Shown here: piece after piece, positions 3,444 to 54,093 of the stretch
Layout: the number at the start of each line of letters is the position of its first letter
Numbering within the stretch: position 1 is the stretch's first letter
Assembly (NCBI GenBank): GCA_043228905.1
Contig: JBHGNT010000010.1
Span: forward strand, 1,736,001-1,800,000
Length of the DNA: 64,000 nucleotides
Direction: 5' to 3'
Origin: Azolla caroliniana
Taxonomy: Eukaryota > Plantae > Polypodiophyta
Notes under the pieces: generated by a model
Database searches by the model: none
Seen by the model: the letters and a program-made list of their open reading frames with translations, nothing else
What the model was told of the DNA's origin: nothing
Program-made: the position numbers and the translations under genes

Positions 3444-3744
3444 TTTTGGGGACAAGGCTGTCAATGCGGAAGTGCAAGCAACATTCGTGATGAAGAAGAT
3501 CTTGTGCATGCACGAGCAAGATAGACACAGAGGGAGAGAGAGAGACACACACACAATGTATCAATTATATTTCAATAGCAACAGTTACAAAAATAACAAC
3601 CAACCTTTACTAAAGGTTACAAAGTCACTTTATATAGTGACTATCCTAGGGCAACTGCCCTTTATGCTATTTATAAAAATGAACCAAACTTGGGTTGTCC
3701 AAAGGGACAATGTGAATACGGCCATTATACACTCGTATTCGACA
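3444..3744 (-). repeat. Copia-1 3' LTR
   Basis: Matches 8650-8952; terminal TG mutated to TT. Confidence 0.93.
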
Positions 3745-3947
3745 CTCCCCCGTAATGGGCGTATACATGGGTTATCTAAAGAATTACAAGTATATATATA
3801 TACAAGGTTTATCGAATAGATCGGTTTTGTCAGAGTCGGCAAGATCCGAAGACAAAGGACCGAACCGGTCGGGTCGGAAGAGTTGAAGCCGATCCTCAGA
3901 GAACCGATGTTGGTGGTCCGAAACCATCTTGTGCTGTGTGTCCGACT

Positions 3948-7984: not shown

Positions 7985-8649
7985 TTTCGGTTGGTAAGAC
8001 TCGGTTCGGAGTTGACTACAAACCTTAGTGGGGTGCAGCCAGTCGGCTCACCCGATATCGTTCTAGTCGGTTTTGAACCCAAGTCGGTTTGGTTTCAGAT
8101 ACTTGTTGCTGAACTTGCTCGAAGTGACTCCGGTAACTTGAGGGACAGAACCGGCTGGTCTTCCCGAATGTTGCTTAGTCGGAGTGAGCCCGGTTAGCTT
8201 CCAATTGTATGCCGAATACCGATTACGCGAAACCGATTGTTTGGGCCGATTTTGCTTCGGATGATTGCAGCGATGACTCCAACTAATCCTCCCGAATGTC
8301 GATCAGCCGAGTGAAGCATGAAGTGGTTGTTGCCGGGAGACCAATCTGCAGCGGGTGGTTACAACAAGCGGGTGAATAGCGTCCGATGACCTATTCGGAT
8401 GTTGTTTAACTGAATGAAGCACGATTGGGTCGGTTGTTGCTCAAGGAGCTCCCCTCAAGCGGTTACAATCACAGGAATAGAGTACAACCGACTGGCTTAC
8501 TCCAATTTGTGATTTAACACAGTGAGATGCGAGCTCTTTGTCTTTTTCTTCTCCCTTCTCTGTTCTTCAAAGAAAACGAAAACAGAATGTTGTGTTGTGC
8601 GATGACGGCCGGCAGCGGGTTAAAGAACCTCCAACGCTCTGATACCAAA

Positions 8650-8952
8650 TGTTGGGGACAAGGCTGTCAATGCGGAAGTGCAAGCAACATTCGTGATGAA
8701 GAAGATCATGTGTATGCACGAGCAAGATAGACACAAAGGGAGAGAGACACACACACACACACAACGTATCAATTATATTTCAATAACAACAGTTACAAAA
8801 ATAACAACCAACCTTTACTAAAGGTTACAAAGTCACTTTATATAGTGACTATCCTAGGGCAACTGCCCTTTATGCTATTTACAGAAATGACCCAAACTTG
8901 GGCTGTCCAAAGGGACAATGTGAATACGGCCATTATACACTCGTATTCGACA
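8650..8952 (-). repeat. Copia-1 5' LTR
   Basis: TG...CA ends, adjacent to the PBS. Confidence 0.95.
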
Positions 8953-33992: not shown

Positions 33993-35300
33993 CAAGACAG
34001 AGAGCACGATGTATACAGAAAACAAGAAAATTGTATTAACAAGGAGCAAGAATGAACCAACAATTACAAAGAGGAGAAGGTGATGTAGTCACCTTCTCTC
34101 TATGTTCTCTCACTATAACCACCATTTGCAGAAGAGGTGGAGACTTAACTATCTACTAAATATGTGTCATATAACCTTAAAGTTCTATGACACACTAATT
34201 ACTATACTAAGAGGTGGGGTGTTCACACACTTGAGTATACTAAGGTGTGTTCCCATGCTAGGGAAGTTGAGTTTCATTCTCAACACGCCCCTTCAAACAC
34301 AACTTTCGGTCGCCGAATAGTTGGTTCGGACTGGTCTTCGGGTCGGCTTTGAATCGACTCCAGCTTTGGCTTCGGATAGCCAGCTCACTCCCGTGGTTGT
34401 TCTGCTCCGTTCGTCATCGTGTTAGACAATTCCCTATCCATACTCCCCCTCGAGCTCAGCTAGTCAGTGGTCAAAAGACCGAGGTTCGTCGTGAACTGCC
34501 ACAACTTGTCGACCCCTGAGGCCTTCGTGAAAATGTCGGTCGTTTGCAGATTCATGTTGATGTGTTGAAGGTCGACATCTCCGGCCAGGACACACTCTCG
34601 AATAAAGTGATAATGCATCTCAATGTGCTTAGTTTGAGCGTGGTTTGCGGGCCAATTGGATGTTGCTCATGTTGTCGCAATAGAGGAGAATCGGATCCTT
34701 GATGGGAACGCCTAGATCATTCAAGATTCTTTTGAGCCAAACGACTTCACATGTGGCGACGACCGCGCCCCTGTATTTGGCCTCTATGCTTGACAATGCA
34801 ACTATCGGCTGCTTCTTATTTCTCCACGATATGGCTCTGTTGCCGAGGGAGAAGACGAATTTGAATGTTGATCGTCTATCGGCTTTGTAACCGGCCCAAT
34901 CAGCATCATTGTACCCTTCGAGTCGAATTGGTGTGGCTGACTTCTAGAGGATGTCGAAATCCATCGTCCCACTTACATAGCGTAACACTCTCTTAGCACA
35001 GTCCAAATGAACACGGTGTCTACATAAACTGGCTAAGAGGCCAACTGGGTAGCTAAGGTTAGGCCGAGTGATGGTGAGATAGACAATGCTTCCGACTACC
35101 TCACGATAAACAGTCGGCCCACACTCTTATGTGCCGGAATTGGCATGTAGCCTTAGATTTCGATCGAGAGGGGTAGTGACGGGCTTACACTCTATCATCC
35201 AAAACTTGTAACGAAGATTGAGTATATAATGACGTTGGGAGATCATGATGCCGTCAGGAGTCCAAATAACTTCTATTCCTAGAAAGTAATGGAGCTCCTT

Positions 35301-35671
35301 TGTTGTATGTATGGCTGGACTAGCCACAACACAGGTGTCTATCCGACACTTCTCCAAAGGGGTGGTAGGGATAGGATGTTAATACACGCGTATGATAATT
35401 ACACTTAAGCACAGACGAAGACAAGATTAATCAGCATAAGCAAAACTATATTAATTCTTCGCGCTTTCATTACAAAACATCGGATCCTTTTATAGGCATC
35501 CGGCCAGATTACAATCGGTGCTCGGCAGGCAACCGTTAACCGAAACCGAATCGGTTCGGATCCGGATCGGTTACAACTACCGGATCCGTCCCTCCTAATA
35601 ATTCTATTCCTATTTCTATATTTATCCGATCCGACCTTGCTTTCCCATTTGCCTTCTCTGACCGGCCAACA
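35301..35671 (-). repeat. Gypsy-1 3' LTR
   Basis: TG...CA, identical to 45134-45504. Confidence 0.97.
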
Positions 35672-35721
35672 CATGGCACGCCCGTGGGAAAGTGCATTGC
35701 ACTTCGAACCCACAGCCGGCT

Positions 35722-38637
35722 TCAGTCTTCCTCCAAATTATCAGGCAAACTCCGCTCCGAGGTTTCAAGTGTTGTTTTGCCTGTGCCGTCTCCGACGTCC
35801 GATTGGATTGGCTGCCTTTCCGCATCTTGCTGCTCCGACTCTGCTTCTACCGGTAGTACCGGTGTTTCTTCTGTATCCTGTCCGGGTCTGTCCTGCTCTA
35901 CCTCCGTTCCGTTCCCGGTTTCGCTCTCTCCGGTTTCCACTGGTTGTGTCCTTTCCTCCCCGGATTCGGTACTTCTCTGTCTCCACTCTGCATCACCCCC
36001 GGCATCAACCTGTTCTTGCTCCGGAAGTTCTTCCTCGGGTAATTCTTGTCGGGGTGCGTTGTCGGTTGGGTTCTCTTCAGCCGATCGCTCGCCCTCACTG
36101 ATGGAGATCGGCGTTGTGCGTCCCTCGGCTTCCTGTCGCAGTCGGTCCTTCTCGTACCCTTCCAATTCCAGTTGGGTTTCGAGCTGCCCGTCATCCAACC
36201 TCTCTACTAACCCTCGGATTTCCTTGAGATGCTCTTCTGCTAGGGCATAGAAATCCTCCGACAATTCTTCCCGGATGTTGACGATACTTTCTTCGTCCAT
36301 TTTATAGAACCCATCTCCGTTTTTCTTCCGATTTTCTGCATCAGCTCGGAGTATCTGCAGTTCAGCTGCCTGTTGTGCCCATTCCTTCCAGAGTTTCTCC
36401 GTGCTTTCATTTATGCTGGCCTGAGCTCGGGTACTCCAGCTTGACATGATGAACTTAATTCGGTCAACCCCTGCTTTAGCCTGTTCCGAGGCTGCTTGTT
36501 TTTCCTTCCTTATCCGTTTGATGATGTCGGCCATTAACTGAGCTTGAGCTTCAGAGTCGACTTTTTGCTTGTCACAGGTACTCCGCCATTTGTTGATTTC
36601 GAAAGTCGACTTCACTTTTTCCTCGTTCCAACTCTTTGTCAGCTCCCCTACTTTCTGCCGAAGTACTTCCATCTCTTTTCTTTGTTCCGACGTCAAGGTC
36701 TTCTCCACCGATACTTCTTCCCTTGCTTTGGACACTTCCAAGCGGTTTTCCTTGAGCTGCTCTTTCAGCTTTTCTATCTGTCGGTCGTACGTTGCTGCCT
36801 GATTCTTGATGTCCGACGTGGCCTGTTTATAATCCTTACATAGTCGGTCGAATTCCTCCGTCTTCTGTTTTAGGCGTCGGTTCGCCTGATCTCGCAACCG
36901 ATCATCCCGGTCCTTTTGTTGTCGGAGTTCCTCTCGCAACCGCTCAATTTCCTGCTCCATTCGTCGGCGCAGCCTATCTTTTTCCTTTTGCAGTGTCCCG
37001 TTTTCTTCTTGTAGTCGGTCATTGGTGGCTTTGCTTCGGCGAAGGCCTTCCTCCATTCGCCGTCTGTCGTCTTCTGCCAACTTCCGCTGTTCTCTTTCGT
37101 TATCTCTCAATGCCTCCTGAGCCTGTAATTCTTCTTTCAAAGTTTCTATTAACTTCTCGGTCTCAGGGCCGGTTTGCACGGCCTTCTCCGTTTCTGGTTC
37201 GGCTTGCTTTTCTGATGTCCCGACCGTCTCGGTGCCATCTTGTGCTTGTCGGCTGCCTTCTTTTGCCTGTGCTAGCTCTTCTTGCAGCTCATGTAATTGT
37301 GCCCGGAGCATGACCATATCTTTAGTCGTCGTCCTAGTTACTTGTTCTCTTTGCTCCTCCTCTTTCTCCATCTGGTCTGCTACTCCCGACAACTGCCCTG
37401 ACACCCACCTTAGCCATTGTGCCTTTGTTCTGCCTTCGTTGGTGTGAGCAGGCGTACCTAGCTCCGACTGTTTTTCCGGCTGTTTCTCCGGCCTCTTCTC
37501 CTGCTCCGGCGCTTGTTCCTTTCTTGGTTCTTCGAACTCCGCCGCCGTCGGTTCCGGTACTGCCGTCGTTGGTGCAGACGGACCCTCATCCTGTGTCGCT
37601 TCTGTTCCGGTTACTGGAGGCGGTTCTTTTGCCCGTTGCTGAGTTCCGTCCGCTGTTGGGGTCGGTCTTGTCGCTCGTTTCTCCTTCCCTTGCCTGGGTG
37701 GTAGTATTAACGTCGGTTCGGATGAGTCTTCCTCTGTTTCAGCGTCCTCCGTCGGTGCCACTATTGGTTCCTTTACTGGTACCGGTTCCGATTCGAGCGT
37801 TACTGGTTCGGTGTCGGTTTGCCTCTTGCTAGTCTTCTTTGCCAGCTTCTCTTTGCCTTTTTCCGCCTTTTTCTTCTTCATTGTCGGCTGCTGTTGCTGT
37901 TTCTGTGGCTGCCGTGATGGGCCTTCGTCCCGTTGCTGTCGGGATGAGTCTTCTTCCCGCGGTTGTCGAGCTGAGCCTTCTTTCCGCGGCTGTCGGGATG
38001 ATCCTTCTTCCCGCGGCGCTTCTTCTTCCTGTGTCCATCCTGGGGTGTGTTTCTCTAGTATTCGTCGGCGCTTCATGGTTTGCTTCGGGGTAGTCTCCTG
38101 CCGACTTCTTTGCTTGTGCTTGATGGGGGACACCGGTGGGACCAACACTGTTAACCATTGGGATATTCCGGACCATGGCTTCTTCCCTTCCACCAAGTGC
38201 TTGATCGCCTCTTTCAGTCCTTCGGTGATGAAGTGGAGCCAGTCCACCTGCAGGCCTTCGAATGTCGCGATGACGATCGCTGCTCGGTATTTGGCTATGG
38301 CTGCCGGACGAGGGTTCACGAACCCATACTCCATCAGGGCACGGGCCACCTCTCCGAACAGCAGGTCCTCTCCGCCCTGTGTGCGATACGCCTTGCTGCT
38401 GAGGGAATATTCGCCGAAATACTCGAAGAATATTTGGCTCGAGGGTAGCTCTATTGTTTGAAGTCCTCCCTCCGAAATCCCTGAAAGCGCTTGTACCGCT
38501 CCTTCAGTGACCTCTGCTAAGTCCACCGCTGTTGCCGCCTGCTCTGGTTCCTTGTGTGGTGGAGCGTCAGCGACCCGCAGCAGCCCTCCTAATCCGTTCT
38601 CCGTCAGCCATTGTCGCGCTCCGTCCGACAGTGCCAT
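35722..38637 (-). CDS. Gypsy-1 additional ORF2, ~971 aa: globular N-domain, basic disordered linker, long coiled coil, acidic tail
   Basis: Open frame of 1064 codons. The ATG at 38637 (MALSDG) is the first in-frame ATG after the TATA box. No signal peptide or transmembrane stretch seen. Confidence 0.85.
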   Translation of the reverse strand: MALSDGARQWLTENGLGGLLRVADAPPHKEPEQAATAVDLAEVTEGAVQALSGISEGGLQTIELPSSQIFFEYFGEYSLSSKAYRTQGGEDLLFGEVARALMEYGFVNPRPAAIAKYRAAIVIATFEGLQVDWLHFITEGLKEAIKHLVEGKKPWSGISQWLTVLVPPVSPIKHKQRSRQETTPKQTMKRRRILEKHTPGWTQEEEAPREEGSSRQPRKEGSARQPREEDSSRQQRDEGPSRQPQKQQQQPTMKKKKAEKGKEKLAKKTSKRQTDTEPVTLESEPVPVKEPIVAPTEDAETEEDSSEPTLILPPRQGKEKRATRPTPTADGTQQRAKEPPPVTGTEATQDEGPSAPTTAVPEPTAAEFEEPRKEQAPEQEKRPEKQPEKQSELGTPAHTNEGRTKAQWLRWVSGQLSGVADQMEKEEEQREQVTRTTTKDMVMLRAQLHELQEELAQAKEGSRQAQDGTETVGTSEKQAEPETEKAVQTGPETEKLIETLKEELQAQEALRDNEREQRKLAEDDRRRMEEGLRRSKATNDRLQEENGTLQKEKDRLRRRMEQEIERLREELRQQKDRDDRLRDQANRRLKQKTEEFDRLCKDYKQATSDIKNQAATYDRQIEKLKEQLKENRLEVSKAREEVSVEKTLTSEQRKEMEVLRQKVGELTKSWNEEKVKSTFEINKWRSTCDKQKVDSEAQAQLMADIIKRIRKEKQAASEQAKAGVDRIKFIMSSWSTRAQASINESTEKLWKEWAQQAAELQILRADAENRKKNGDGFYKMDEESIVNIREELSEDFYALAEEHLKEIRGLVERLDDGQLETQLELEGYEKDRLRQEAEGRTTPISISEGERSAEENPTDNAPRQELPEEELPEQEQVDAGGDAEWRQRSTESGEERTQPVETGESETGNGTEVEQDRPGQDTEETPVLPVEAESEQQDAERQPIQSDVGDGTGKTTLETSERSLPDNLEED

Positions 38638-38772
38638 CGCTTCTTCTTCGTTTGCTGCTGCCTGTGGTCTGAGGTCGGGGTGTAGGTGTTCTGCGCGTCG
38701 GATCTTGCTGTCTTGAGCTTGCGTTTGCTTGTGGGAAAATTCGTAAAAAGTGAACCCTTCCCCGGTTCTTCC

Positions 38773-39060
38773 TTTATATAGTGGCGTTTCCCGCGGGCCG
38801 CCTTTTCCTGTTTTTCGCGCGTCCCCTGCCATAATTAGGATGTCACTCTTTATTTTTTGACGGCTGCACGTTTCTGCCATAATTAGCATGTCACTTTTTA
38901 ATTTTGACGGCTGCACGTGTTCTGCCTAATTTTGGCGCCTGCGCATGCTGTGTCATGTATAGTATGTCTGTCCTTTGCTGCCGCGTGTCATGCTTGCGTT
39001 TCTTTGCCGCGTGTGTCGAATCTCCTACGTGTCTGTCATTATGACTCCTTGATTGCCGCA
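38773..39060 (-). promoter_or_regulatory. Putative internal promoter of ORF2: TATA box, four E2F sites and a 48-bp duplicated element
   Basis: TATATAAA (minus) 38780-38773; TTTCCCGC 38787; TTTCGCGC 38813; TTTGGCGC 38931; TTTGCCGC 39003; 48-bp tandem 38826-38930 with TGACG and CACGT. Confidence 0.7.
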
Positions 39061-39211
39061 CGTATTAAGTCCTGTACCTCGGCGCCCCCACGTTCTGTGC
39101 TTTAAATAGCTCGTGCCTCCGTGTGACGGTTGTAACTACCTCCTTCATCATTACCATGATTTTCTTGATCTTCTTGTCTTGAATTCTCTTGACCGTAACA
39201 CCACGTCATCA

Positions 39212-39222
39212 TTTTTTCTTTT

Positions 39223-39275
<53 letters not shown>
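39212..39275 (-). repeat. Poly(A) tract in element sense (A51 plus GA5GA6) directly after the gag-pol stop
   Basis: Pure T run 39225-39275 on the + strand. Confidence 0.9.
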
Positions 39276-39288: not shown

Positions 39289-42200
39289 TCATTGTTCGGT
39301 TTCCCCCGATGTGTTCGGGTCGGTGCGCACTGTTGTCGGTTCCTCGTCGTTGTTACGCGTTGGTGTCGGTTCCTCGCCATTCGGGTTTTCCGGGTCTTGC
39401 TTGAAGGGGTTAGCTGGCATGTGCCCCTTATACGGTTTTAGGCGAAACCCATTTGCCCATTTGCCCACAACTTCTCCTGACAACGTCCCGAGCTGGTAAG
39501 ACCCATTGTACTCCTTTGTGATCCAGAATGGTCCGGTCCACCGAAATCGCAATTTCCCTGGCATGCTCCCCATCCTTGTCTGGAACAATAATACAGGTTT
39601 CCCGACCCCGAATTCCTTTTCGTTACCGCGCCGGTGTCGGTCTACAAAGGCTTTCCTCCTCCTTTGCTCTAGTTCTAGCTGTAGTAGGCTGGCTATTCGA
39701 TTTTCTTCCAGTTCTAACAGCATCTTCAGCCGGATTCGTTCGGATTCCTTCTCGCTTAACCGCTCCTTAACCTGTATTCTTAAGCTAGGAATTTGGAATT
39801 CTACTGGCATGACTGCTTCCAAGCCGAATGCCAGTCGGAACGGGGTCGTCCGGATGCTAGTCTTGTACGCCGTTCGGTACGCCCACAGTACGCTCTGCAA
39901 CTTCGTGTCCCAGTCGGTCCGGTTCTCATTGACGATTTTTCTAAGGATGTTCTGTAGCGTTTTATTCGTTGATTCCGCTAATCCGTTGGCTTGAGGGTAG
40001 TAGGGAGTGCTTCGTTTGTGTACTACCGCATAGAATGATGTCAAACTTTCCACCACCTGCCCGAGAAAATGTCCTCCCTGGTCACTGATCAGCTCAATCG
40101 GGCATCCGTACCGACACCATATGCATTCATATAAAAATTTGGCCGTGGACGCCGCCGTGTTGTCCCGTAGTGCCTTTGCTTCTACCCATTTGGTGCAGTA
40201 GTCGGTAGCCACTATTATATACCGATTTCTGGTCCGCATTGCCGGTGGCTTAAAGGGGCCGACAAAGTCTAAGCCCCACTTTTGGAATGGTTCTAATGGC
40301 AAGACCGGGTGATGTGGCATCCGGGCCTGCTCCGTGGGTTGGCCCAGTCGTTGACACAGGTCGCATTCCCTGCTATACTTAACGGCATCTCTCATGGTAG
40401 TCGGCCACCATAGTCCGCTCTGCCATATCTTCCGGGCTGTTGTTTCGCCGGCATAATGCCCGCCTGCAATTCCACAGTGGGCTTCCCTCAGGATCAGATC
40501 CTTTTCATCGCTCCGCACTGCTCGCCTCCATACGCCATCTGCCCCCTTGTGATAGAGGGTGTCTCCTACCAAGCAAAAATGTCTGCTCCGTACTGCCATC
40601 CTCTTCCGTTCGTCTCGGTCCAGGTTTTCCGGGGGAACTCCGGTGCTCAGGAACTGATGCATTTCGGTTAACCATTTGTCTTCGTCCGCTACTGTGGTCT
40701 CCGTTGCCGGTGTCGTCGTGACCTTAAACAGCTCGGCGTCGGGAAATTCGTCCTGCACGCCGTCCCCTGATTCTCCGGATTCTAGTCTGCTCAGGTAGTC
40801 TGCTACCGCATGCTGCACCCCGGGTCGGTGGAAAATGTCGAATTCGAATTCCTGTAATAGCAGCGTCCACCGTGCGAGTTTTCCTGTCAGGGCTGCCTTT
40901 GAGACCAGGTACAGTAGTGCCGAGTGGTCAACGTGGAAGGAGAACTTTCGTCCGAGCAGATAGTGCCTGTACTTTGTGACGCTGTACACCATTCCTAATG
41001 CCTCTCGTTCCGTTGTAGAGTAGTTCCGTTCGGCTTTCGAGAGTTTCCTGCTTGCGTAGTACACCGGCCGATACCATTTCGGTTCCGTGAGTTGCATCAA
41101 AACGCTGCCGATTGCTACGTCCGACGCGTCGACGAAGACGTGAAAGCTTTTACTCCAGTCCGGCGGCTGCACCACCGGAGCTTGTGACAGCATGACCTTC
41201 AATGCTTGGTAGGCTGCCTCCTCCGTTTCTGTCCATTGGAAAGGTACTCTATGTACAGCAGCATGCAATGGTGTTGCAAAGTCGGCAAGGTGCCGTATCA
41301 TCCGACTATGCCACCTTATTTGACCAAGGAATCGGCTTAAAGCTTTTGCGCTATTCGGTGCCGGTGCGTCGAGAATTGCTTTTACCTTATCCGGATCTAC
41401 CGCGATTCCTTCTCGACTCACCACGTGGCCTAACAAATTGCCGCTTGCGACTCCAAAGACGCACTTAGCCGGGTTCAGACTTAATCGGTACTCGCGGCAC
41501 TTTTCTAAGCATAGTCGTAGGTGATCGAGATGCTCTCCGTGTCGGCTGTAGACGGCGAAATCGTCTAGGAAGACCTGCATAAAACCGGGAATAAAATCCC
41601 CGAAGATTTCCATAATTATCCTTTGAAATGTTGCAGGGGCTGTCTTTAATCCGAACATCATCACGACGGCGACGAACACTCCCCATTCCGTCACGAACGC
41701 TGTTTTCTCTTGGTCGGCCGGGTTCATTCGGATTTGGTTGTAGCCGCTGAATCCGTCCAGGAAGCTGTAAACTTCGTGGCCGGCCACCGCATCTAGCACT
41801 CCGTCCGTGAATGGTAGTGGAAAAGCGTCGGTCACTGTCGCGGCATTTAGTTTCCTGTAGTCCACACATACCCGGATTTTACCGTTCTTTTTCGGGACCA
41901 CCACTATCGGGCTTAGCCAGGTTGCCTGCTTGACTGGTCGGATAAATCCGACCCGGAGAAGCTTGTCAATTTCCTCCTTCACCTTTGCCGCATAGTTTGG
42001 ATTCATCCGGTACCGACGTTGAGTGATGGGTTTCGCGTCAGTACTTAGATGAATTTGGTGCTGGTAGAGCTGGGGGTCCAACCCTCGCATGTCTTCGTAT
42101 GACCATGCGAACACGTCCTTGAAATCCGTTAACAGTGCTACCATTGCCTGTTTTTCCTCCTTCGGCAATTCCTTCGCGACTTTTACCGATCGGGGTTGTT

Positions 42201-45081
42201 CTGTTGTGCCGAGGTCCACCTCTTCCAGCTGAGATGCTTTCACCCTTTGGGATATCGTCATTTCTCTTTCTAGGGCTTCCTGTGCTTGGCGTAGTTCCCG
42301 GATCGCCACTTTGTCCGGCTCGTCCGGCATTGTGATGTACGGTTCTACTGCTGCCGTGATATCCACCTCAAAAAGTGGGACGATCTGTGGGTGTTCCTCG
42401 AGGTACCGATCAACTTCCTCATCCGGTAAGCCCTGCAACATGTTGATGCTTTCGGCATATAAAGGGGTTGCCTCCTTGCTAGTGAGCACCCGTGGTTGCG
42501 TGGCTACCCGTACCTTTGTTTTCCCTCGTCGGAACGTGATCATATTCTTTTGCCAGTTTTGCTTGATATGCGCCGTTCGCAGCCATGGTCGTCCTAACAG
42601 TAGGGGATATGCGCCTTGTACATTCAGCTCTAGTACCACGGCCGATATTCGGAATACGTGGCCTCCTATTGTCACTTCCAAGTCCCGGATAAGACCAGTT
42701 GGTCGGACTGAGCTTGTATCCGCCATGCGTAACCAGAAGGGGCATGGTTCCCACTCCTGGATGCCTAGGTCGTCGCATGTTTGTAGACTAATGACGTTCA
42801 CCCCGGAGCCTCCGTCAATAATTGTTCCTGGGATCTCCTTTCCTTTGACGATTGTCGTGATTGCTGGGCTACTGGTATCAACCACCGCTGGGCCTTCCTC
42901 TGGGTTGGAGAAAAATGCCGGTGCCGGCATCGGCGTCGGTTTGCTCACGGCGGCTTGTAAGTCTGCTGTAAACCGCGGCACCAACTGCAGTAACCGTGCC
43001 AACGGCAGCACGATCTGACAATCTTGTAGTGCTTGCCATGTCGGGTTTTCTCCTGGCTGTACGATTTCCTCCTCCCTTGGCATCTTTTGGTTTCTTACTT
43101 CCGCCGCACCTTGTTCGTTGGCTTCTTTGATCCATTGTGCCGCTTGTTTTCTGATTGCTTCCTGGGCTTCCCATTCGGCGGCCTTCCCCTTCGACCGCGT
43201 GGTAACCTGCTGTACTTCAGCTGTCACCATGTTGACTGTTGGCTGCTTGTCGGCTGTTTTGCTTGGGCATTGATTACTGTAATGCCCTTCTTTTCGGCAG
43301 TAATAACAGTACACCCTGTGCGTGTTGCTGGATTCTCCTTTTTCCCATGTTTGGGGAAGGGGCATTCCCCGGCTGTTGTCCTCGGTTTTTCGGTTCTCCG
43401 GTGCCGCTACTGGTTTGTCATTCCTCGTTGCCTCCCGACGCTCCTCTCTACGGAAGAATCCACGCCTTTGGTTCCGTCGGAAATTCCGGTTCCCTGGCCG
43501 CCTTTCTTCTCTGCGTCGCTCGTATTCCGGGGATTCGTCTCGGTCGTACCGGTCCCGGGGGTAGCTATCCCTTCGGTTCTCCTCTCGGTCGTACCGGTCC
43601 CGGGGGTAGCTATCCCTTCGGTTCTCCTCTCGGTCGTAGCTGTCGCGTCTTCTATCGGGGTATCTGTCGCCGCGTTCTCGTCGGTAGCGGTCGTCCCTCC
43701 GGAATCGATCCTCTTCCGGGTCCCGATTGCGCGGTTCTATGTGTCGGACCGGTGCCGCTTGTCGAGTTAACAGATTATACTCGCATTGGTTCGTTGTGTG
43801 GGCGCGAGAATTGCATATCATACACTGTGCGCGCAGGGTGCAGTCAACGGTCGAGTGCCCTGAATTTAGGCATGTTGTGCATTGTAGGGCTTGTCGGAAC
43901 CGGAGGTCCTCCTCCTTCGGAAGCGCCTGGTGTAACGCCCCCATCGGCAAGAAGGGGCTCGTGGTGTCCATTTCCAGGACCCGATCAATGACTTGGTCCA
44001 TTGTGCTGGTGCTGAAATCGATGATTCCACACATCGCTCGAAGTGGGTCTTTTAATGCAGCCAAAAAGACTGCCTTGGCCTCCTCTTCGGGTGGTGCTCT
44101 TGCTAATTGACTGTGCAAGGTCTGGAAACGAATGATAAATTGTGGGACCGTCTCGTTTTCTCCCTGCCGAGTGGTGTAGAATTGTCCGACCAATTCCCTT
44201 TGTTCCACTCGTCTATGAAACAAGCGTAAAAACTGGGTTTTCAATGCCTCGAACGTGGCGAAGCTGCCTGGTAAGTGCTTGTCGTGCCACCGGGCCGCCG
44301 GTCCTTCTAATGTCATGCCGAATTCGGCGACTTTGGATCGGTCGGCCTCGGCCTCCGTCAGTCTCTGGGACACGTGGTTGGCTTCCCATGTTCGCAGGAA
44401 TGCATACACATGTGCCTCTCCGTCGGGCTCATCCCGATACTTTGGGTACGGATACGGCATCGTGTCGTCCCACTGATTCTCCTGCGCTGGTTCCTCCGAT
44501 GTCGGTCTCCGCTCGTGCGGTTCCTCCGCAGGTGGTGTTGGTATCCGCTCCTGCGGTTCCTCTGCGGGTGGTGTTGGTATCCGCTCCTGCGGTTCCTCCG
44601 CGGGTGGTGTTGATATCCGCTCCTGCGGTTCCTCCGCGGGTGGTGTTGATAACCGCTCCTCCCTCCTCGGCGATTGCCGGTCACCGAACTCCCGAGTTAG
44701 TTCTTCCTCTGGCTCCGATGTGGCTGAGTGATCCGACTCAAAGGGGTTGTTCCCGTGGCTGCTTTTAGAGCGGGATCCCACGCTTTCCCCGCTATCCGAA
44801 TCCGCCTCTAATGTTGCAAATGCCGCTGCGTCCCCGTCGCCGCCAGCGAGAGTCTGTAGTAGTGTCTCCGCTTCTTGGAGGCTGGTTATGCTACTGCCTT
44901 CGTCGGAAGCTTGTAGAACCTGGAACTGCAGTGCGTTTTCTGCGATTTGCCGAAGCGTTGTTGAGAATGACCGATCGCTCCGGATCTCGTCGACGGCTTG
45001 CTGCAGGGCTTCCCGTCGTCGCTGCCGTTCGGCGTGGCGTCTCCCTCTTTCGGTGATGTGGTCGTTATTTTGTCTAGACAT
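39289..45081 (-). CDS. Gypsy-1 gag-pol polyprotein, single frame, ~1930 aa
   Basis: Capsid; three CCHC knuckles; protease IIDGGSGVN; RT (LDGFSGYNQI, VFLDDF); RNase H (VDASD..ERNYSTTERE); integrase (HHCC, WGLDFVG, SDQG, QANG.AE, GPF). No chromodomain. Confidence 0.97.
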   Translation of the reverse strand: MSRQNNDHITERGRRHAERQRRREALQQAVDEIRSDRSFSTTLRQIAENALQFQVLQASDEGSSITSLQEAETLLQTLAGGDGDAAAFATLEADSDSGESVGSRSKSSHGNNPFESDHSATSEPEEELTREFGDRQSPRREERLSTPPAEEPQERISTPPAEEPQERIPTPPAEEPQERIPTPPAEEPHERRPTSEEPAQENQWDDTMPYPYPKYRDEPDGEAHVYAFLRTWEANHVSQRLTEAEADRSKVAEFGMTLEGPAARWHDKHLPGSFATFEALKTQFLRLFHRRVEQRELVGQFYTTRQGENETVPQFIIRFQTLHSQLARAPPEEEAKAVFLAALKDPLRAMCGIIDFSTSTMDQVIDRVLEMDTTSPFLPMGALHQALPKEEDLRFRQALQCTTCLNSGHSTVDCTLRAQCMICNSRAHTTNQCEYNLLTRQAAPVRHIEPRNRDPEEDRFRRDDRYRRERGDRYPDRRRDSYDREENRRDSYPRDRYDREENRRDSYPRDRYDRDESPEYERRREERRPGNRNFRRNQRRGFFRREERREATRNDKPVAAPENRKTEDNSRGMPLPQTWEKGESSNTHRVYCYYCRKEGHYSNQCPSKTADKQPTVNMVTAEVQQVTTRSKGKAAEWEAQEAIRKQAAQWIKEANEQGAAEVRNQKMPREEEIVQPGENPTWQALQDCQIVLPLARLLQLVPRFTADLQAAVSKPTPMPAPAFFSNPEEGPAVVDTSSPAITTIVKGKEIPGTIIDGGSGVNVISLQTCDDLGIQEWEPCPFWLRMADTSSVRPTGLIRDLEVTIGGHVFRISAVVLELNVQGAYPLLLGRPWLRTAHIKQNWQKNMITFRRGKTKVRVATQPRVLTSKEATPLYAESINMLQGLPDEEVDRYLEEHPQIVPLFEVDITAAVEPYITMPDEPDKVAIRELRQAQEALEREMTISQRVKASQLEEVDLGTTEQPRSVKVAKELPKEEKQAMVALLTDFKDVFAWSYEDMRGLDPQLYQHQIHLSTDAKPITQRRYRMNPNYAAKVKEEIDKLLRVGFIRPVKQATWLSPIVVVPKKNGKIRVCVDYRKLNAATVTDAFPLPFTDGVLDAVAGHEVYSFLDGFSGYNQIRMNPADQEKTAFVTEWGVFVAVVMMFGLKTAPATFQRIIMEIFGDFIPGFMQVFLDDFAVYSRHGEHLDHLRLCLEKCREYRLSLNPAKCVFGVASGNLLGHVVSREGIAVDPDKVKAILDAPAPNSAKALSRFLGQIRWHSRMIRHLADFATPLHAAVHRVPFQWTETEEAAYQALKVMLSQAPVVQPPDWSKSFHVFVDASDVAIGSVLMQLTEPKWYRPVYYASRKLSKAERNYSTTEREALGMVYSVTKYRHYLLGRKFSFHVDHSALLYLVSKAALTGKLARWTLLLQEFEFDIFHRPGVQHAVADYLSRLESGESGDGVQDEFPDAELFKVTTTPATETTVADEDKWLTEMHQFLSTGVPPENLDRDERKRMAVRSRHFCLVGDTLYHKGADGVWRRAVRSDEKDLILREAHCGIAGGHYAGETTARKIWQSGLWWPTTMRDAVKYSRECDLCQRLGQPTEQARMPHHPVLPLEPFQKWGLDFVGPFKPPAMRTRNRYIIVATDYCTKWVEAKALRDNTAASTAKFLYECIWCRYGCPIELISDQGGHFLGQVVESLTSFYAVVHKRSTPYYPQANGLAESTNKTLQNILRKIVNENRTDWDTKLQSVLWAYRTAYKTSIRTTPFRLAFGLEAVMPVEFQIPSLRIQVKERLSEKESERIRLKMLLELEENRIASLLQLELEQRRRKAFVDRHRRGNEKEFGVGKPVLLFQTRMGSMPGKLRFRWTGPFWITKEYNGSYQLGTLSGEVVGKWANGFRLKPYKGHMPANPFKQDPENPNGEEPTPTRNNDEEPTTVRTDPNTSGETEQ

Positions 45082-45133
45082 CCATCCCCCGGTTGTCCTC
45101 TGCACTCTGCAGGAATCGTGGTCGCCAAAATAG

Positions 45134-45504
45134 TGTTGTATGTATGGCTGGACTAGCCACAACACAGGTGTCTATCCGACACTTCTCCAAAGGGGTGGTA
45201 GGGATAGGATGTTAATACACGCGTATGATAATTACACTTAAGCACAGACGAAGACAAGATTAATCAGCATAAGCAAAACTATATTAATTCTTCGCGCTTT
45301 CATTACAAAACATCGGATCCTTTTATAGGCATCCGGCCAGATTACAATCGGTGCTCGGCAGGCAACCGTTAACCGAAACCGAATCGGTTCGGATCCGGAT
45401 CGGTTACAACTACCGGATCCGTCCCTCCTAATAATTCTATTCCTATTTCTATATTTATCCGATCCGACCTTGCTTTCCCATTTGCCTTCTCTGACCGGCC
45501 AACA
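45134..45504 (-). repeat. Gypsy-1 5' LTR
   Basis: Followed on the minus strand by a 6-nt spacer and the PBS; TATAAAAG inside. Confidence 0.97.
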
Positions 45505-48500
45505 TCCTTCATGTCTTTCGTTTCGAATTGGTCGGAGAATAGCTTTTTGATATGTTTGATATATGCTAAATGCTCTCCTCCAATGTCCAAGTCATTCACA
45601 TATATTAGGATAAATACTTGTCCTCTGGAGTCACTCTGGATGAACAAAGAATTGTCGGACTTGTACATTTTAAAGCCGATTTGGTGAAGATATTGGGCTA
45701 TCTTCAAATGCCATGCTCTAGGTGCTTGCTTGAAGCCGTAGAGGCTTTTTAATTCGGCAAACAGCAGTCGGATGCATACTCAACTTTAATCCCAAGTGGT
45801 TGTACCATGTACACCTCCTCATCTAATTTGCCTTGGAGAAAGGCGTTCTTGAAGTCCATTTGATGGAGGTGTCACCCATTTGCTACTGCAAGCACAATCA
45901 CAGTTCGAATGGTAGTCATCTTTGCCACCGGTGCAAAGGTCTCTTCATAATCAACCCCATGTGTTTGCGCATACCCTTTTGCCACGAGCTAGGTCTTATA
46001 TCGATTGACAGTGCCATCAACATTGTGCTTCACCTTGAATATCCACCGACACCCGATTGCCTTTTGGTGGGGTGAAGGGGGAACGAGATCCCATGTCTCG
46101 TTTTTGGAGGGTGCTTGCATCTCCTCATTCATCGCTTCGACCCATCATGGGTCTTTGTGGCTTCGGAAAAAGTTTTTGGCTCTCGGATTGTCGCCACCTT
46201 CATCATGATTGCATAATGATATGCCATGTGGTCGTTGTAGCCGAATCAGATGAATATGTTATTCTCTCGAGTGGACCGACGTGGTTGTTCACTTGTCTTC
46301 GTGAACACTTTCTCGACTCCTCGTATCCTCATGATAGGCACATCCAATTCACCATACTCACTGTCGAGTTGGTGAGCCGATTTGTTTCCATCGGAGGCTT
46401 TGTACTCAAGCATTTTGACCTTCCCTTTGTCCAATTTCGGACTTGGCCATGACGTGCTTTGGTCACTTGGAGGCTCTTGCGGTCCACTCAACTTGGTTGA
46501 GATTGGACTTTCTTTTGGTGTGAGCCTCAGTTGATCATCCTCCTCTGAGTCTATTTTGATTGGGTTAGATAGAGCTGAGTTGACTGTGTACCAGGATGCT
46601 AATTCATTGAATACAACATCCATACTCACTCATACCTTCTTGGTAGAGGGGTTGAAGCACTTATACCCCTTTTGTTCGAGCGAGTACCCAAAAGGATACA
46701 ATTCTCCGATTTTGGATCGACCTTTTGTCGCTTTTCATTCTTGATGTAGGTTTGGTTGCCCTCTTCGCCAAAAGGGACATTTATGACATGCTGAATAGGG
46801 TGGGTTGTGTCATCCCCTATTTCCACATAGCTGGGTCGTTCGAGTTTTTGCAATTCTCAAAACCAAACATTATGAGACGTCAGATGATTGGATGCACCCG
46901 AGTTGACAAACCATACATTTTCCGAGTTGGAGGTGTTTGTACGATATTGTCATCAAATTCACTCTATGTCACATCATGAACATTCTGCCACGATCGTTGT
47001 AGTCGGAATTTGAGGCATAGTTAGTAAGTTGTCAGCTTGTGAAGGCTGGCTGGCTCTTCTTCTTCTGACACTCTGCCCCGTAGTGGCCAAATTTGCCATA
47101 GTATCCACATTGGACGGAGTTGTTTTGTCGGTTGGGTTTGGCATTATTGCTCCTCTTTCTTCCAGACATACAACCTCGCGTGTTTGCAACGTCTTGTTAG
47201 TAGTAGAAGTTCTATTCGCAGGGTTGTTCTTGGTTGTGATGGCCTTGGCCGACTCAACCTCTTCTTCCACGACTTTGTCCCCTTCCTTCATCCAAGTTCG
47301 AATAGAGCATTTGTCCTTCTTGCACATTGCTCTTTGTTCGAACGTGATTTTCTTCGACCGGTAGCATATTATATCCCGCGGTGAGAATTTACCGTAGTAT
47401 TCTATACACGTGGATAAGTGTGAGGGTTAAATGAGAGTGTAAAGAAGGGGAGGATTACTTTTAATCCTCGGGATTGAGACAACCTGTTAGGCCAAGTGTG
47501 AACTTGCCTGGGGGTCTTGGGTATCACTATAAATATGAAGCCTAGCTACCCTCATTTCATCATATCTTGACTACGTCGAGACTCTGTTTCGTGGTGGGTC
47601 AACTCTTGTAGTGAGTCCGCCAACACCAGGTACGACTCAACGTCACGACAATGGTATGGGATGCCGATCGAGGCTCGAGTCCGTCTCGATCCCTTTGCTC
47701 GGGGGTGGTCGGGTGGATCGACACCCTTCTTTCTCTCTCTCTCTCTCTCCTTTCTATCAATCTATCTTTTATCCTTATCATATGCTTACTTTAGATCATA
47801 ACTTTAATAGTTGGTATCAGAGCTTATGTTTCTAATGTTTCCTTTGTTTGTTTTTGTCTTCTTGATGGATGGTGATCAATCGATGTGCGGTCGACCTTGA
47901 TCCAGATGGCGATCAACAAAGGAACATATTTGATCGTATATGTGTGATAAATATACATATGTCTATGTTAGTTATAACGTAATTTCTATTATTATCGAAT
48001 GTTGTCCTTTTCAGGGAAAGGATCTTGGTGACTGTCCTCACATTTTTGTGAGAATGGCATAGTCATCATCCTTTTTTCAACAATCTTTTTTATTGACATC
48101 CCCGTTGGTCACTTCAATTTTGTTACGTAATGAAACGATCATAGCCACAATGATGGTGAGAATGTAGGGCTTGACCCACTTCATGTGAGGTCGCTCCTAG
48201 GACACACATATCCAACATCCTTCCCTCACTACATGGATACAATGCCACCATGAGATCATTCTTACGAAAGGCATTCGTAATGACGTAACCATGTAATGGG
48301 CCACGTGGACCTACTATGAAAAGAGGGCTCATTTGGCTTGACCATTAGGTTACACTTTGGCATATGCCATCATAATTATGAGACTTGAGGTTAGGTAATG
48401 TACCAACATAGTTTGTGGTAAACGAGTGGGAAATAAGGACTCTTGACATATGTGTTTCTTTTTAAAAAAACATACATGAGCAAATGCCTCGCATATCTCT

Positions 48501-49130
48501 TGTACGCATAAAACATTAAACATGCAACACGAGCAACCTATTTGGTTAGCTCAAGTGTTTAATGTATTTGTTCTCGAGGTCTCGAGTTCAAATATGACCA
48601 AGACCATACAACATTATTGATACATATGACTATAATACATGTTTAGACTTTAGGTCTAAGTGCACTTCGAGGTCCTCGTAATAGGACTTAAAGAGCCAAC
48701 ATTATTGATACATATGACTATAATACATGTTTAGACTTTAGGTCTAAGTGCACTTCGGGGTCCTCGTAATAGGACTTAAAGAGCCGAAACCACATACGTG
48801 GGCACAAAAACATAGTTTATTGTTAACATTTTTTTCGTGTATAAACTATTCATGACACGAACATACATGGTTGAGCCTCGGGGAGCCGCCATGAAAAAAA
48901 TTGATATAGAGATTAGGGAAAGACATTCATTTGTCACCCCCATGGTTTTTAAAACACCTTTGTGTTACCATAGTAACCTGATCTTGAACCTCATCTCATA
49001 CGTCTAGAGGGGTATTGACGTGAGATTATGATATGGATTAATGTTGGCCCATGATATGTTTACATCACGACTTGATGTTATGACTATTTGTCTGACCTTA
49101 TCCTATTTCTTTGCCAGAAATAATCATTCA

Positions 49131-52100
49131 ATGGCTCAGAATAACGACCCGATGTCATCCGCTCAAGCGGAAGGAACTTGAGGAAATCCTCTTGGAGCAA
49201 TCTCCATTGAGTCGTATTTCTTACACATACAAAATTTCCTTAATTCAACCGCTCATCAGATGTCCGAACTTCTGCAATCTCAAAGTGCTCTCGAGGCATG
49301 TGTCATTAGTTTACAACGTGACTCTAATAGACCCGATGAGCGTCAGGGTGAACCATCATTTGTCGTAAAGCCATTTACGGGAGAAAAAAAGGAAAGAACC
49401 AAAGAAGCAATCTGCACGTGGTTGGGCTAATGGGAGTCTCATTTTGTGCTCTATCCTATGCCAGATAGTACAAAGATTGCATATGTCGGCCGAGAACTAG
49501 GGGGTAAGGCTGCCGCCTGATGGTGTGGGCTCCGAACTTTGGGGAAATTGCCTGATACCTGGACAGATTTTGTCATAGTTTTTAAGGGCCAAATTTTGCA
49601 ACCTCCCTCTCAAACCGAGGCAACACAAGCTTTAATGAACTTCTCTAGTAGGAAGTTTTCCTTGCTAGAAGACTATGTTCACCATGCTCGAACCCAAATC
49701 CAAAAATCGGGTCTAGAAGGGGACAATTGGTTGATAGCTTGTTTTGTCAATGGCATTCCCAATTCGGACTATCACTGGATAATACATGATAAGGATCCAA
49801 AATCCTTCGAACAGGTCGTTGAAATAGTTCTTCGCTATCAACGCACTTCGAAGAAGGATCATAACAAACCCAACGAAGCACACGGGACTAAGCAATCGCA
49901 ATTCGCTAGGAAACGCAAGACACCCAACGAATTCGTGGATTGTGATTGTAAGCGACAACATCCTTTTTGCGTATTCTGTAAAAAGAAGGGTCATACAAAA
50001 GAACAATGTCGAGAGCTCCAACGGAAAGAGCACGGCAACAAAGCAAAAGTTGTAGACCATAAAGGTTAGATTCCTAATGTCCTTGAGGTCTATACGCCTC
50101 ATTTAAATAATTGTGAATGTTCTTTCCCTCACTATGTATTGGGACCCAATGATTTACTACGTGCAAACGGGTATGTCAATGGATCTCTCGTACAATTTTT
50201 GTTTGATTTGGGAAGCTCACACAATTTTGTGAATGATTGTCTGGTTCATATATGGGGAATCCAACCCATCGTAAGTGATCACACCTATAGGGTGCACTTG
50301 GCTGATGGAAGAGTACAATACATCAACGGGGCGATTCATTCATTAGGAATTTCTATTGATACTTATGTAGAGGAAGTAGACTTCCATGTAATGAATCTTT
50401 GTACCACTGATGTAATACTAGGTTATCCCTGGTTTTATAATAAAAACTTTTCTTTGTCTATTGATTGGGTTCGTCATTCCATTTCCTTTGTACTAAACAA
50501 TTGTACTCATTTTATTCAAGGTGTAAATAAACAATCCCTTTCGATTGTTTCCTCTCCATCAATATTTGAGTTATCTTGTTCTTCTTTATTTTATTGTGTA
50601 CTTGATCCGAACATTCATGTTACAATATTGATAACATCTCAGGTCAATTGACATATTTTGAACAACAACAACTCAATAAAATCTTAAATGATTTTCATGA
50701 TGTTTTTCCGAGTGAACTACCACATGGGTTACCTCCTAAACATAATATAGACCATCGTATAGATATAATTTGTACCTGGCGTTGCACCAATAAGTATACC
50801 TCCTTATCGCTTAAGTCGATCCGAAGAGGATGAGGTATCTAAGCAACTCAAGGACTACTTACGAATGGGTTATATATGTTATAGTAAATCTCCATGGGGT
50901 GCACCTGTTCTCTTGGTAAAAAAAGAAAGAGGGCACATGGCGTATGTGTATTAATTATCGACGCTTGAATAAAGTGACAATCAAGAATTCATATCCATTG
51001 CCCTGGGATGACGATCTAATTGACCATCTCCAGGGAGCTCGGTATTTTACGAAACTTGATCTCCGTACAGGCTACCATCAAATTCGTATAAGTGAGGACG
51101 ATGTTCCTAAAACGACATTTCGTACGCGTTATGGCCATTATGAGTTTTTGGTTATGCCTTTTGGTTTGACCAATGCTCCGAACACATTTCAACAAGAAAT
51201 GAATGACATTTTCTGAGAACAACTTGGAAAATTTGTCATTATTTTCTTGGATGATATTCTAGTTTATAGTCATACATTAGGAGAACATGCTAAACATGTC
51301 TGTTTTGTTTTGCAAACATTGCGCGATAAGCAATTCTATGAGAAGATCTCAAAATGCGAGTTCTTCAAGAAATCAATTACTTATCTTGGACATCTCATAA
51401 CCGAACGAGGAGTTGAAATTGATCCTTCTCGCATCGAGAAAATCAAACTTTGGCCTACTCTTCGGAATATTCGAGAAATTCGATCATTCCTTGGTTTTGT
51501 CGGGTTTTTGCGAAATTCCCTTTGTAATTACTCCCAATTGACGATGCCGTTTACTGATCTTCTAAAAGGTCAAACACGTAAGTCTACAAAACCTATTGTG
51601 TGGAATGCTACACTAGGCCTCGCCTTTAAGGAACTCAAGGACCTGGTGTGCAAGGCTCCTTCGCTTCTTTTACCTGATCCTTCAAAACCTTTTGAAGTTG
51701 AAACCGATGCAAGCGATTATGCTATAGGTGTTGTCTTATATCAAGATGGTAAACCAATAACATTCGAGAGTAAGAAACTTGATTATGCTCAATCTCGGTA
51801 TACGGTTCAAGAAAAGGAATTATTTGCAGTTATACATGCGCTCAAAAGTTGACGCCTTTATCTTTATGGAAATCTTTTTGTGGTAACTATGGACCACAAG
51901 TCCTTGAAATATTTTTGTGACCAACAAAACCTAAAAGGTTGTAAGGCACGATGGGTTGAACATTGTCGAAGTTGCATCCGTGAAGTTAACATGCTTAGCT
52001 TCACTGAAATAACATCAAATCTTTATGATCACCTTCGAGGAAAGTATCTTGTGTTAGGAAATAGGTCCCTCCAGATGGGAAGTTGAGAAGAACCGTGTTG

Positions 52101-54093
52101 ATGAGCACGGCCTCGGCCGAAACCGGAAATCGTGGAGATAGCCAACCCGAAAGGCTAAACTTGTAAATAGTCGAAAGGTTACATTAGTATATAAGCACTT
52201 AGGGCAATCATGTTATGTGTGTGTGTTATTGTAAAGTTACCGTTGACGAGGTTGTTGCCTCCGTAACTGTGAGAGTGAACGAGTGTGAGTGGAAGCGTGT
52301 GAGCTCCATAGCCGCCTGTTGGCGAAGCAGAATCTCGAGGTCGTTGCCTCTGAGATCTCTGATTGTATTCCTTTCTCTCATAGTGTTCTGTTTCGGAGTT
52401 TGTGGACTCCATGTGGTTTTTCCCAATTCGGGTTTCCACGTTAAAATCTATGTCACTCTCAGTTTCTGTATTCTGTTTTTTCCTTTCCTTAGATTGACTA
52501 TTATTCCACACACGCGAAACCAATTGTGGCCGGCAACAATTTAACTTTCATCTTGATGACAATTACTTTGCAAAATATTGGGCAAGAGTTGAGTCTGGAA
52601 AAGACACCAACACCTCCTCGAAGGAATCCTTCCACATTGCTAACGGTCTTTTCTACAGTAATGGGAAGGTTTGTGTTCCAGATTTGCCTGAGGTCAAAAA
52701 GAGAATTCTTTTTTAATGCCATTATGCACCCTCTGCGGGGCACCCTGGAATACATCGTACACTCGTTCTCATCTCCACTCAATTCTATTGGCCTAAGATG
52801 CGTCATGACATACATAACTATGTGATTAAATGTCACCAATGTCAGGTTAACAAAGTTGAGCGACTTAAAGCTGCAAGACTTTTACATCCCTTGGACATTC
52901 CCAATAATAAGTGGGAAAGTATATCCATGGATTTTATTGTTAGCCTTCGTCGCACCCAAAAAGGCCATGATGCCATCTGGGTTGTGATTGATAGACTAAC
53001 TAAAATGGCCAGATTTATTGCTACTAAAACCATGGCAACAACTCCTGAATTGGCTTACCAATTTGTTGACGAGTTATTTCGTTTTTATGGGTTACCAATG
53101 GATATCGTGAGTGATCGAGATCCAAAGTTTACTAGTGACTTTTGGACGCAAGTCTTTAAGAAGTTAGAAACTACATTGAGCATGAGCTCCACGGATCATC
53201 CTCGATCTGATGGACAGACAGAGCAAGTAAATCAAATTATTGAGGACATGCTTTGAGCATACGTCGGTGCAAAACCAACAAAATGGGAATGTTATCTCCC
53301 AAATTTGGAGTTTGCTTATAACAGCTCCAAGCATACGTTGACGAGATATAGTCCGAGGACATGCTTCGAGCATACGTTGGTGCAAAACCAACAAAATGGG
53401 AACATTATCTCCCAATTTTGGAGTTTGCTTAGAACAGCTCCAAGCATACGTCGATGAGATATAGTCCTTTTACATTGATGTATGGTTTTCAGCCACGAGC
53501 CCTGATTGATGTTAATATACATCATGATGAGTTGCGAAGTACGCAAAACTTTCTTTGGGATATGCAAGATATGTTTGCATATTGCACGAGATAATATAAA
53601 AACATCTCAAGATAGAGCGCGTTTTTACGCCGATCATAATAGGCAACCTCGTGTATTCAACCCTAGACAGAAGGTATTTTTATGTGTACCTCACAATTCT
53701 AAGACATTGTCTACGGGTAAGTGCACTAAGTTAGCCCCACGGTTTTGTGAACCTTTTCAAGTCCTCAAACGCATTGGTTCATCAGCCTATCGTCTCGCTC
53801 TTCCCGATGGCATTGAAATTCATCCAGTTTTTCATGTAAGTCGTCTAAAAGAACTTTTAGGTTCTGGCGACAATATAGTTACAACTGAAACTCTGGTTAC
53901 TTTAGAAGAATTATCTTCTAAACCACGTGTACTAGAAATAATTCTCGATGTTAAAACAAAAAAATTGCGTACTAAAATAATTCGAGAATTTAAAATTAGA
54001 TGGATGGATAAATCTATCAAAGATGTTGGGAACGCGAAAATACTCTTAGAACTAACTTCCCTAACTTTCCATTGCAAGAGTGCAATGTTTTAA
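49131..54093 (+). pseudogene. Gypsy-2 gag-pol remnant with C-terminal chromodomain
   Basis: CVFCKKKGHTKEQC; FDLGSSHNF; [21 protein letters not shown]; VETDASDYAIG; SMDFIV/SDRDPKF; chromo-like EIILDVK..REFKIRW. Many stops. Confidence 0.92.
52052..52550 (+). mobile_element. Solo LTR of an unrelated family inserted in Gypsy-2 pol
   Basis: TG...CA, TSD TCTTG (52047-51 and 52551-55). Removing it restores RGKYL|DDNYFAKYW. TATATAA at ~52188 suggests + orientation. Confidence 0.9.

What the first reader, a model, noticed from the sequence alone, without database searches (positions are those of the whole stretch)
38773..39060. Internal E2F-site cluster: an S-phase promoter inside a retrotransposon
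Seen: all four TTTSSCGC variants once each, in the same orientation, within 224 bp (38787-39010), plus ATTGCCGC at 39052. Chance expectation is ~0.03 sites. The nearest site is 6 bp from a TATATAAA lying ~135 bp before the ORF2 ATG. A 48-bp duplication adds TGACG and CACGT motifs. The same words mark the host FBL17 promoter in this window. Known: E2F/DP-RBR controls G1/S genes through this motif. Inference: ORF2 is expressed in dividing (meristem or germline-founder) cells, when methylation is being copied.
Basis: partly seen in the sequence, partly recalled or inferred. Interest (0 to 1): 0.8.

Follow-up and report, generated by a model that had tools for sequence, protein, structure and literature searches.

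The report
Tandem-repeat internal promoter in fern retrotransposon
In a young jumping gene, likely of a fern, the cell-cycle (E2F) words are real but are copies of one short tandem repeat in front of the element's second gene, a stretch that likely acts as an internal promoter for a protein predicted to fold like a known transposon anti-silencing factor; control by the cell cycle is untested.

The parts
45134..45504 (-). 5' LTR, 371 bp, TG...CA, own TATA-like TATAAAA at LTR base 178; no strict E2F word; seven CGGATC/GATCCG words
   Evidence: 100% identical to the 3' LTR; target-site duplication TCCTT at 45505-45509 and 35296-35300
45118..45127 (-). primer-binding site TGGCGACCAC; the tRNA-Arg assignment is recalled and from earlier notes, not tested
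39289..45081 (-). gag-pol single ORF: gag, zinc knuckle, RT, RNase H, integrase; no second RNase H or chromodomain hit
39212..39275 (-). A-rich tract directly after the pol stop, of variable length, seen in the displayed copies of every subfamily
38800..39110 (-). degenerate tandem array of 43-65-bp units (CTAWT start, ACGT/GCATGC middle, GCGSSAAW slot); about 6-7 units in subfamily A, 2-4 in B and C, 2 in D/E
39100..39109 (-). CTATTTAAAG, first unit start; alternative TATA or CArG-like word (labels recalled); a match to the pattern in 57/58 A, 30/32 B, 6/7 C, 52/60 D/E
39052..39059 (+). ATTGCCGC, broad E2F-type word; kept in 20 of 58 A copies
39003..39010 (+). TTTGCCGC; strict word in 47 of 53 A copies parsed
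38931..38938 (+). TTTGGCGC in the 43-bp unit; strict in 68 of 77 units
38826..38931 (.). recent 48-bp unit duplication (2 of 58 A copies); here the slot reads as a non-E2F word containing TGACG
38830..38832 (-). upstream in-frame ATG, 65 codons before 38637; present and in frame in 97 of 97 A/B/C copies
38813..38820 (+). TTTCGCGC in the last unit; strict in 55/58 A and 23/32 B (as TTTCCCGC); broad ATTCCCGC in 4/7 C, 8/20 D1, 7/12 D2; 0/13 E1, 1/15 E2
38787..38794 (+). TTTCCCGC next to the TATA; private to this copy (1 of 57)
38773..38780 (-). TATATAAA, candidate TATA box; 89 of 90 A/B copies, 0 of 67 C/D/E; reads Leu-Tyr-Lys in the long frame; predicted start near 38751
35722..38637 (-). ORF2 from the ATG that distant relatives share (971 aa; 1036 aa from 38832): globular N-domain, low-complexity linker, long charged likely coiled-coil tail, no hydrophobic membrane segment
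38119..38637 (-). [not shown]
35301..35671 (-). 3' LTR

Best explanation
The stretch is a tandem-repeat array between pol and ORF2 of a young Ty3/gypsy element and likely works as an internal promoter that would make a separate ORF2 mRNA, with the E2F words being amplified copies of one repeat slot rather than a proven cell-cycle switch. Shown: element anatomy, repeat structure, which words are kept in which subfamilies, purifying selection on the ORF2 domain. Inferred: gag-pol is read from the LTR; in subfamilies A and B a TATA that arose in the ancestral coding N-terminus starts a second RNA near 38751, translated from ATG 38637; unit expansion in A multiplied host-factor-type words (E2F-type and ACGT-core alike). 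Predicted: ORF2 is a nuclear PMD/VANC-fold protein with a coiled-coil tail that likely helps the family against silencing (about 0.35). E2F may bind these words when they are unmethylated, but that E2F sets the timing is a further, weaker step.
For: Units and slot. TATA kept in 89/90 A+B copies, with no variant in its 9 columns among 57 A copies; the same CTATATAAAGG word is the LTR TATA of subfamily E2. From this TATA 0 upstream AUGs in 57/58 A copies, against 4-10 from the upstream CTATTTAAAG word. Sense spacer is 14% T with no pyrimidine-tract acceptor. The last 30 codons before ATG 38637 evolve about neutrally in A/B (omega 1.23 A-B; B 1 synonymous vs 16 non-synonymous shared variants over the last 38 codons) but at 0.34-0.52 in comparisons with C and 0.43 within D/E. 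Distant relatives put a Met at the 38637 position. ACGTG is enriched 3-8-fold in all seven subfamilies, strict TTTSSCGC only in A and B. Precedent: Athila6A 'ENV ORF promoter' (PMC4977677, passages); Grande gene23 (PMC7264820). Fold match.
Confidence: 0.55

Rival explanations
1. One reading: E2F/DP binds the cluster and switches ORF2 on at G1/S in meristem or germline-founder cells, and unit expansion in subfamily A was selected to add sites.
For: Three different strict variants are kept together in 47 of 58 A copies; their 24 columns show no shared variant, against 47 of 321 other upstream columns (my estimate p about 0.02, but 0.31 when the labile fourth unit is included); the last-unit word stays E2F-compatible in A, B, C and D although its letters change; the host has E2F/DP genes (9 matches) and the same words upstream of PCNA and the FBL17-like gene; E2F binds transposon-borne sites in Arabidopsis (PMC4110626, PMC5950925, passages citing Henaff 2014).
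Against: TATA-proximal site private; cluster missing from six of seven subfamilies; 48-bp slot strict in 12 of 62 units; 39052 word in 20 of 58; the A/B change at 38813 is also one synonymous plus one conservative codon change; no strict site in the LTR; the words contain CG and would usually be methylated (recalled).
Confidence: 0.22
2. ORF2 is translated from the upstream ATG (38832) on a longer RNA, started further upstream or spliced from the LTR transcript; the TATA and the two proximal words are codons.
For: Open, in-frame extension in all copies; omega lowest in frame 0 for A-C and B-C (0.39, 0.50) and for 4 of 6 D/E pairs; in D/E the start codon lies where A/B have the TATA; D/E keep a YAG after a T-rich run at the last unit start.
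Against: 4-10 upstream AUGs in A and no acceptor; neutral-looking last 30 codons in A/B; the one deleted copy checked (L161/L191) carries an unrelated insert at its junction, not a splice joint.
Confidence: 0.2
3. The array is the binding site of ORF2 itself, as VANC proteins bind tandem motifs in their own transposon; the E2F likeness is incidental.
For: [quoted passage not shown]
Against: No 8-mer is repeated in both LTR and spacer; the LTR has its own repeated word; PMD-type host proteins are not yet shown to bind DNA directly (10.1101/2024.09.27.615353, passages); no sequence-level match to any PDB chain.
Confidence: 0.12
4. The words recruit repressive E2F-RBR complexes and damp ORF2 outside S phase, or serve host silencing.
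For: A review reports RBR at transposons with E2F motifs (PMC7956360, passages).
Against: Its primary source is listed as retracted (PMC6268010, search listing); no data here; the subfamily with most sites has the least diverged copies among those sampled.
Confidence: 0.07

Closest known systems
Arabidopsis Athila6A (Ty3/gypsy, OTA) with its ENV-ORF internal promoter (PMC4977677 passages; spliced form in PMC7197481 passages)
   Same: gag-pol followed by a sense second ORF with its own upstream region; weak feature likeness to Transposase_32/ATHILA clusters (scores 0.85-0.89, leads only)
   Different: 371-bp LTRs, tRNA-like end in place of a polypurine tract, no membrane segment in ORF2, no Pfam ATHILA hit; no E2F array described for Athila in what I read
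Maize Grande gene23 (PMC7264820, parts 1-2 of 3)
   Same: accessory gene between pol and 3' LTR transcribed from its own promoter, nuclear protein
   Different: gene23 is antisense and ubiquitously expressed
E2F sites amplified by MITEs in Brassicaceae (Henaff 2014, seen only as cited in PMC5950925, PMC4110626, PMC11656987)
   Same: E2F consensus words multiplied inside a transposon
   Different: here a retrotransposon's internal spacer in front of an element gene; binding not shown
VANC21 of VANDAL21 and PMD proteins (PDB 9LNJ/9LNK; PMC5735166, PMC13547354, 10.1101/2024.09.27.615353, passages)
   Same: predicted fold of the ORF2 N-domain; coiled-coil region; tandem array in non-coding DNA of the element
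   Different: 9-10% identity, moderate Z; DNA transposon versus retrotransposon; binding and demethylation untested

Membership tests
E2F/DP target promoter | TTTSSCGC or WTTSSCSS words within a few hundred bases of the start (consensus recalled; Vandepoele 2005 not held) | tested here: met
E2F/DP target promoter | sites conserved among homologues | tested here: inconclusive
   three kept in A, one slot in A-D, proximal site private, cluster absent elsewhere
E2F/DP target promoter | E2F binding and G1/S-peaking expression | not testable with these tools
   no raw RNA reads or binding data
Internal Pol II promoter of an extra ORF | conserved core promoter words | tested here: inconclusive
   TATA in 89/90 A+B, 0/67 others; overlaps an open frame
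Internal Pol II promoter of an extra ORF | capped 5' ends inside the spacer | not testable with these tools
   only assembled contigs were offered
Ty3/gypsy LTR retrotransposon | LTRs, TSD, PBS, gag-PR-RT-RH-INT order | tested here: met
   (the protease had no Pfam hit and is read from its DGGSG motif, recalled)
Athila clade (OTA) | no aRH, no chromodomain, sense extra ORF, 5-bp TSD | tested here: met
   criteria from PMC6317226 passages
Athila clade (OTA) | placement in the Athila branch of an RT/RH/INT tree | not tested
   no reference set was at hand
env-like ORF | transmembrane segment | tested here: not met
   highest 19-residue hydropathy mean 1.31
VANC/PMD proteins | DUF1985/PMD fold | tested here: inconclusive
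   [not shown]
VANC/PMD proteins | binds own tandem motif and lowers methylation | not testable with these tools
   needs binding and methylome data

The most novel reading that the evidence does not exclude
A fern retrotransposon lineage has built, by tandem amplification, an E2F-driven internal promoter that makes a VANC-fold anti-silencing protein in S phase, so the element would counter silencing just when methylation is copied, separately from LTR-driven gag-pol.
Probability: 0.12. Interest if true: 0.8.

Novelty: new variant of a known kind. Interest (0 to 1): 0.42.

Why it matters
Extra ORFs of plant gypsy elements are common and mostly without known function or expression route. This family is young (identical LTRs, dozens of copies with ORF2 frames open over 1000 codons) and holds a natural series of promoter states: 3-4, 0-2 and no strict E2F words, with and without the TATA. 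That makes both questions directly testable: whether a retrotransposon times an accessory gene to the cell cycle, and whether such genes are VANC-like counter-defence. As it stands, internal promoters, E2F words in transposons and PMD-type extra ORFs are each known; only the combination would be new.

Tried and rejected
RNA: no RNA holder listed for the ORF2 stretch. Contigs of three runs were laid on 35672-39205 and two on the host gene: X2 is RNA (four GT-AG joints in the F-box gene) and gave only three short pieces on the element stretch; X1 is of unknown kind; contigs cannot show starts or levels, so neither counts. Bacterial promoter scan: irrelevant, at chance. First fold on 17 sequences failed (pLDDT 50). 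Foldseek viral library and PDB sequence search gave nothing; Pfam gave no hit over cut-off for ORF2. Search for spliced retrocopies: 18 of 157 copies lacked a pol-end hit upstream; those with hits join at different places, and the one checked was not a splice joint. The 43-bp unit is complementary to the LTR/PBS junction over about 10 bases; noted, not tested. Literature: no paper on E2F control of a plant retrotransposon's internal promoter in searches; PMC12786077 has no E2F passage; PMC3817159 and PMC12859917 passages added nothing; the VANC21 structure paper and Vandepoele 2005 were not held. No supplements were read. One script failed and was rerun; its D/E-free comparison used 37 of 58 A copies of equal length.

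Full report
Setting. The finding lies in a complete Ty3/gypsy element on the minus strand: LTRs 45134-45504 and 35301-35671, 371 bp and 100% identical, target-site duplication TCCTT, one gag-pol frame and a second sense frame, ORF2. The host is likely a fern: a neighbouring F-box/LRR gene has its named relatives in Ceratopteris and Adiantum. After the pol stop comes an A tract (39212-39275), then about 570 bp to the ATG at 38637.

Observation. All words are where stated. Shuffles of the 224 bp give a mean of 0.20 (dinucleotide) or 0.13 (trinucleotide), none of 5000 reaching 4; for the whole spacer 1 of 5000 did. Look-elsewhere matters: 12 eight-letter patterns with two two-fold positions reach four hits in this spacer, and 30 shuffles gave 0-48 such patterns. 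The cluster is special only because TTTSSCGC has a prior meaning.

Copies. Four searches of the own genome had 340 to 6449 candidates, of which 40-150 were scored. I held 180 loci with ORF2, 157 after removing repeats; a few on small contigs may be assembly duplicates. A tree of the ORF2 core sorted them into A (58, with the window copy), B (32, about 80% amino-acid identity), C (7, about 74%), D1 (20), D2 (12), E1 (13) and E2 (15) (about 48%). This is a sample biased to best hits; D/E copies are older and more decayed.

The spacer is a tandem array. Cut at a CTAWT word, spacers fall into 43-65-bp units with an ACGT or GCATGC middle and a GCGSSAAW slot; A has about 6-7 units, B and C 2-4, D/E 2 (20 copies shown). 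Three of the four strict words and the 39052 word fill this slot. In A the slot is strict in 47/53 copies at 39003, 68/77 43-bp units, 12/62 48-bp units (51 spurious regex hits dropped) and 55/58 last units; the 39052 word is kept in 20/58. The TATA-proximal word is in 1 of 57; 48 others read GAGGGAAA. Two 48-bp units occur in 2 of 58 copies. Strict sites between -520 and -140: at least three in 50/58 A, one or two in 24/32 B, none in 7 C, one in 1/60 D/E. The last slot stays compatible with the broader W consensus in 4/7 C, 8/20 D1, 7/12 D2, but 0/13 E1 and 1/15 E2. A relaxed 7-mer (TTSSCGC, chosen by me after seeing the data) is enriched 3-10-fold in all seven groups, as is ACGTG (3-8-fold) (141 of 157 copies with a detectable A tract). 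Within A the three stable words show no shared variant in 24 columns, but with the fourth unit the test gives p 0.31.

The TATA. CTATATAA is in 57/58 A and 32/32 B copies, in no C (CTACAAAA) and no D/E copy, where the ORF2 start codon occupies that place. The 195 bp from 38832 to 38637 are an open frame: an upstream ATG is in frame in 97/97 A-C copies and all eight length classes among 148 anchored copies are multiples of three. Omega over this extension is 0.43-0.67 between subfamilies against 0.10-0.15 in the core, and frame 0 is the lowest in most but not all comparisons (pairs are not independent). So the stretch was coding in the ancestor. In A/B its last 30 codons look neutral (omega 1.23; B 1 synonymous vs 16 non-synonymous shared variants over 38 codons), while A's upstream part keeps a weak coding signal (p 0.045). 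The sense spacer is 14% T and lacks a pyrimidine-tract acceptor; D/E have a candidate YAG. Several distant proteins from other samples have a Met at the 38637 position with unrelated sequence before it. I read this as a derived TATA promoter in A/B (about 0.55), an internal promoter of some kind at about 0.75.

Host control. E2F/DP domains are present (9 matches). PCNA has one TTTCCCGC 215 bp upstream; the F-box gene has three strict words and two TTTGGCGG. Arabidopsis FBL17 carries E2F sites and rises 15-fold in E2Fa-DPa plants (PMC2651519, passages). The element's LTR has no strict word.

Known systems. Athila6A has an ENV-ORF internal promoter (PMC4977677) and a spliced ORF2 RNA is also reported (PMC7197481); Grande gene23 has its own promoter (PMC7264820); MITEs amplify E2F sites that bind E2Fa (cited in PMC5950925, PMC4110626); E2F motifs were among features of plant LTRs (PMC11656987). 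I found no report of E2F control of an internal retrotransposon promoter (searches; open-access library only; no supplements read).

Verdict. Real words, overstated statistics, an internal promoter likely, E2F or S-phase control open at about 0.2. New variant of a known kind; interest 0.42.

Noticed in passing
window 35672-35720 (-): No polypurine tract before the 3' LTR; instead a tRNA-like 3' end (T-loop word, ends in CCA). Many earlier notes in this genome describe this for the lineage.
   Followed up: partly
window 39212-39275: A-rich tract right after the pol stop in the displayed copies of all subfamilies, from a dozen to about 100 bases; could end gag-pol transcripts or exclude nucleosomes ahead of the spacer.
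   Followed up: partly
window 38925-38942 vs 45123-45133: The 43-bp unit word in subfamily A is complementary over about 10 bases to the LTR/PBS junction; possible long-range RNA pairing or chance.
   Followed up: no
window 45300-45430: Repeated CGGATC/GATCCG words in the LTR (7 in 371 bp, 4 in 5.8 kb of gag-pol), also in B, C, D2 and E2 LTRs; alternative candidate target for ORF2.
   Followed up: partly
L147, L149-L152 spacers: First unit starts read CTATTTATAG or CTATTAATAG in E1/E2, the MEF2-type CArG word (recalled), next to a G-box in E1; a MADS/bZIP reading of the array is open.
   Followed up: no
window 57783-62640 (+): FBL17-like F-box/LRR gene; four introns seen as GT-AG joints in RNA contigs; its upstream region also has two GACGTGGCA words.
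   Followed up: partly
window 45505-45900, 34900-35300; 47365-54556; 3446-8953: The element sits inside older copia-like RT sequence (read by eye, not tested); a decayed gypsy element (LTRs 91% alike) and a copia element (LTRs 96% alike) lie nearby.
   Followed up: no
window 38752-38768: Five-pair hairpin between the TATA and the predicted start; at chance level.
   Followed up: no
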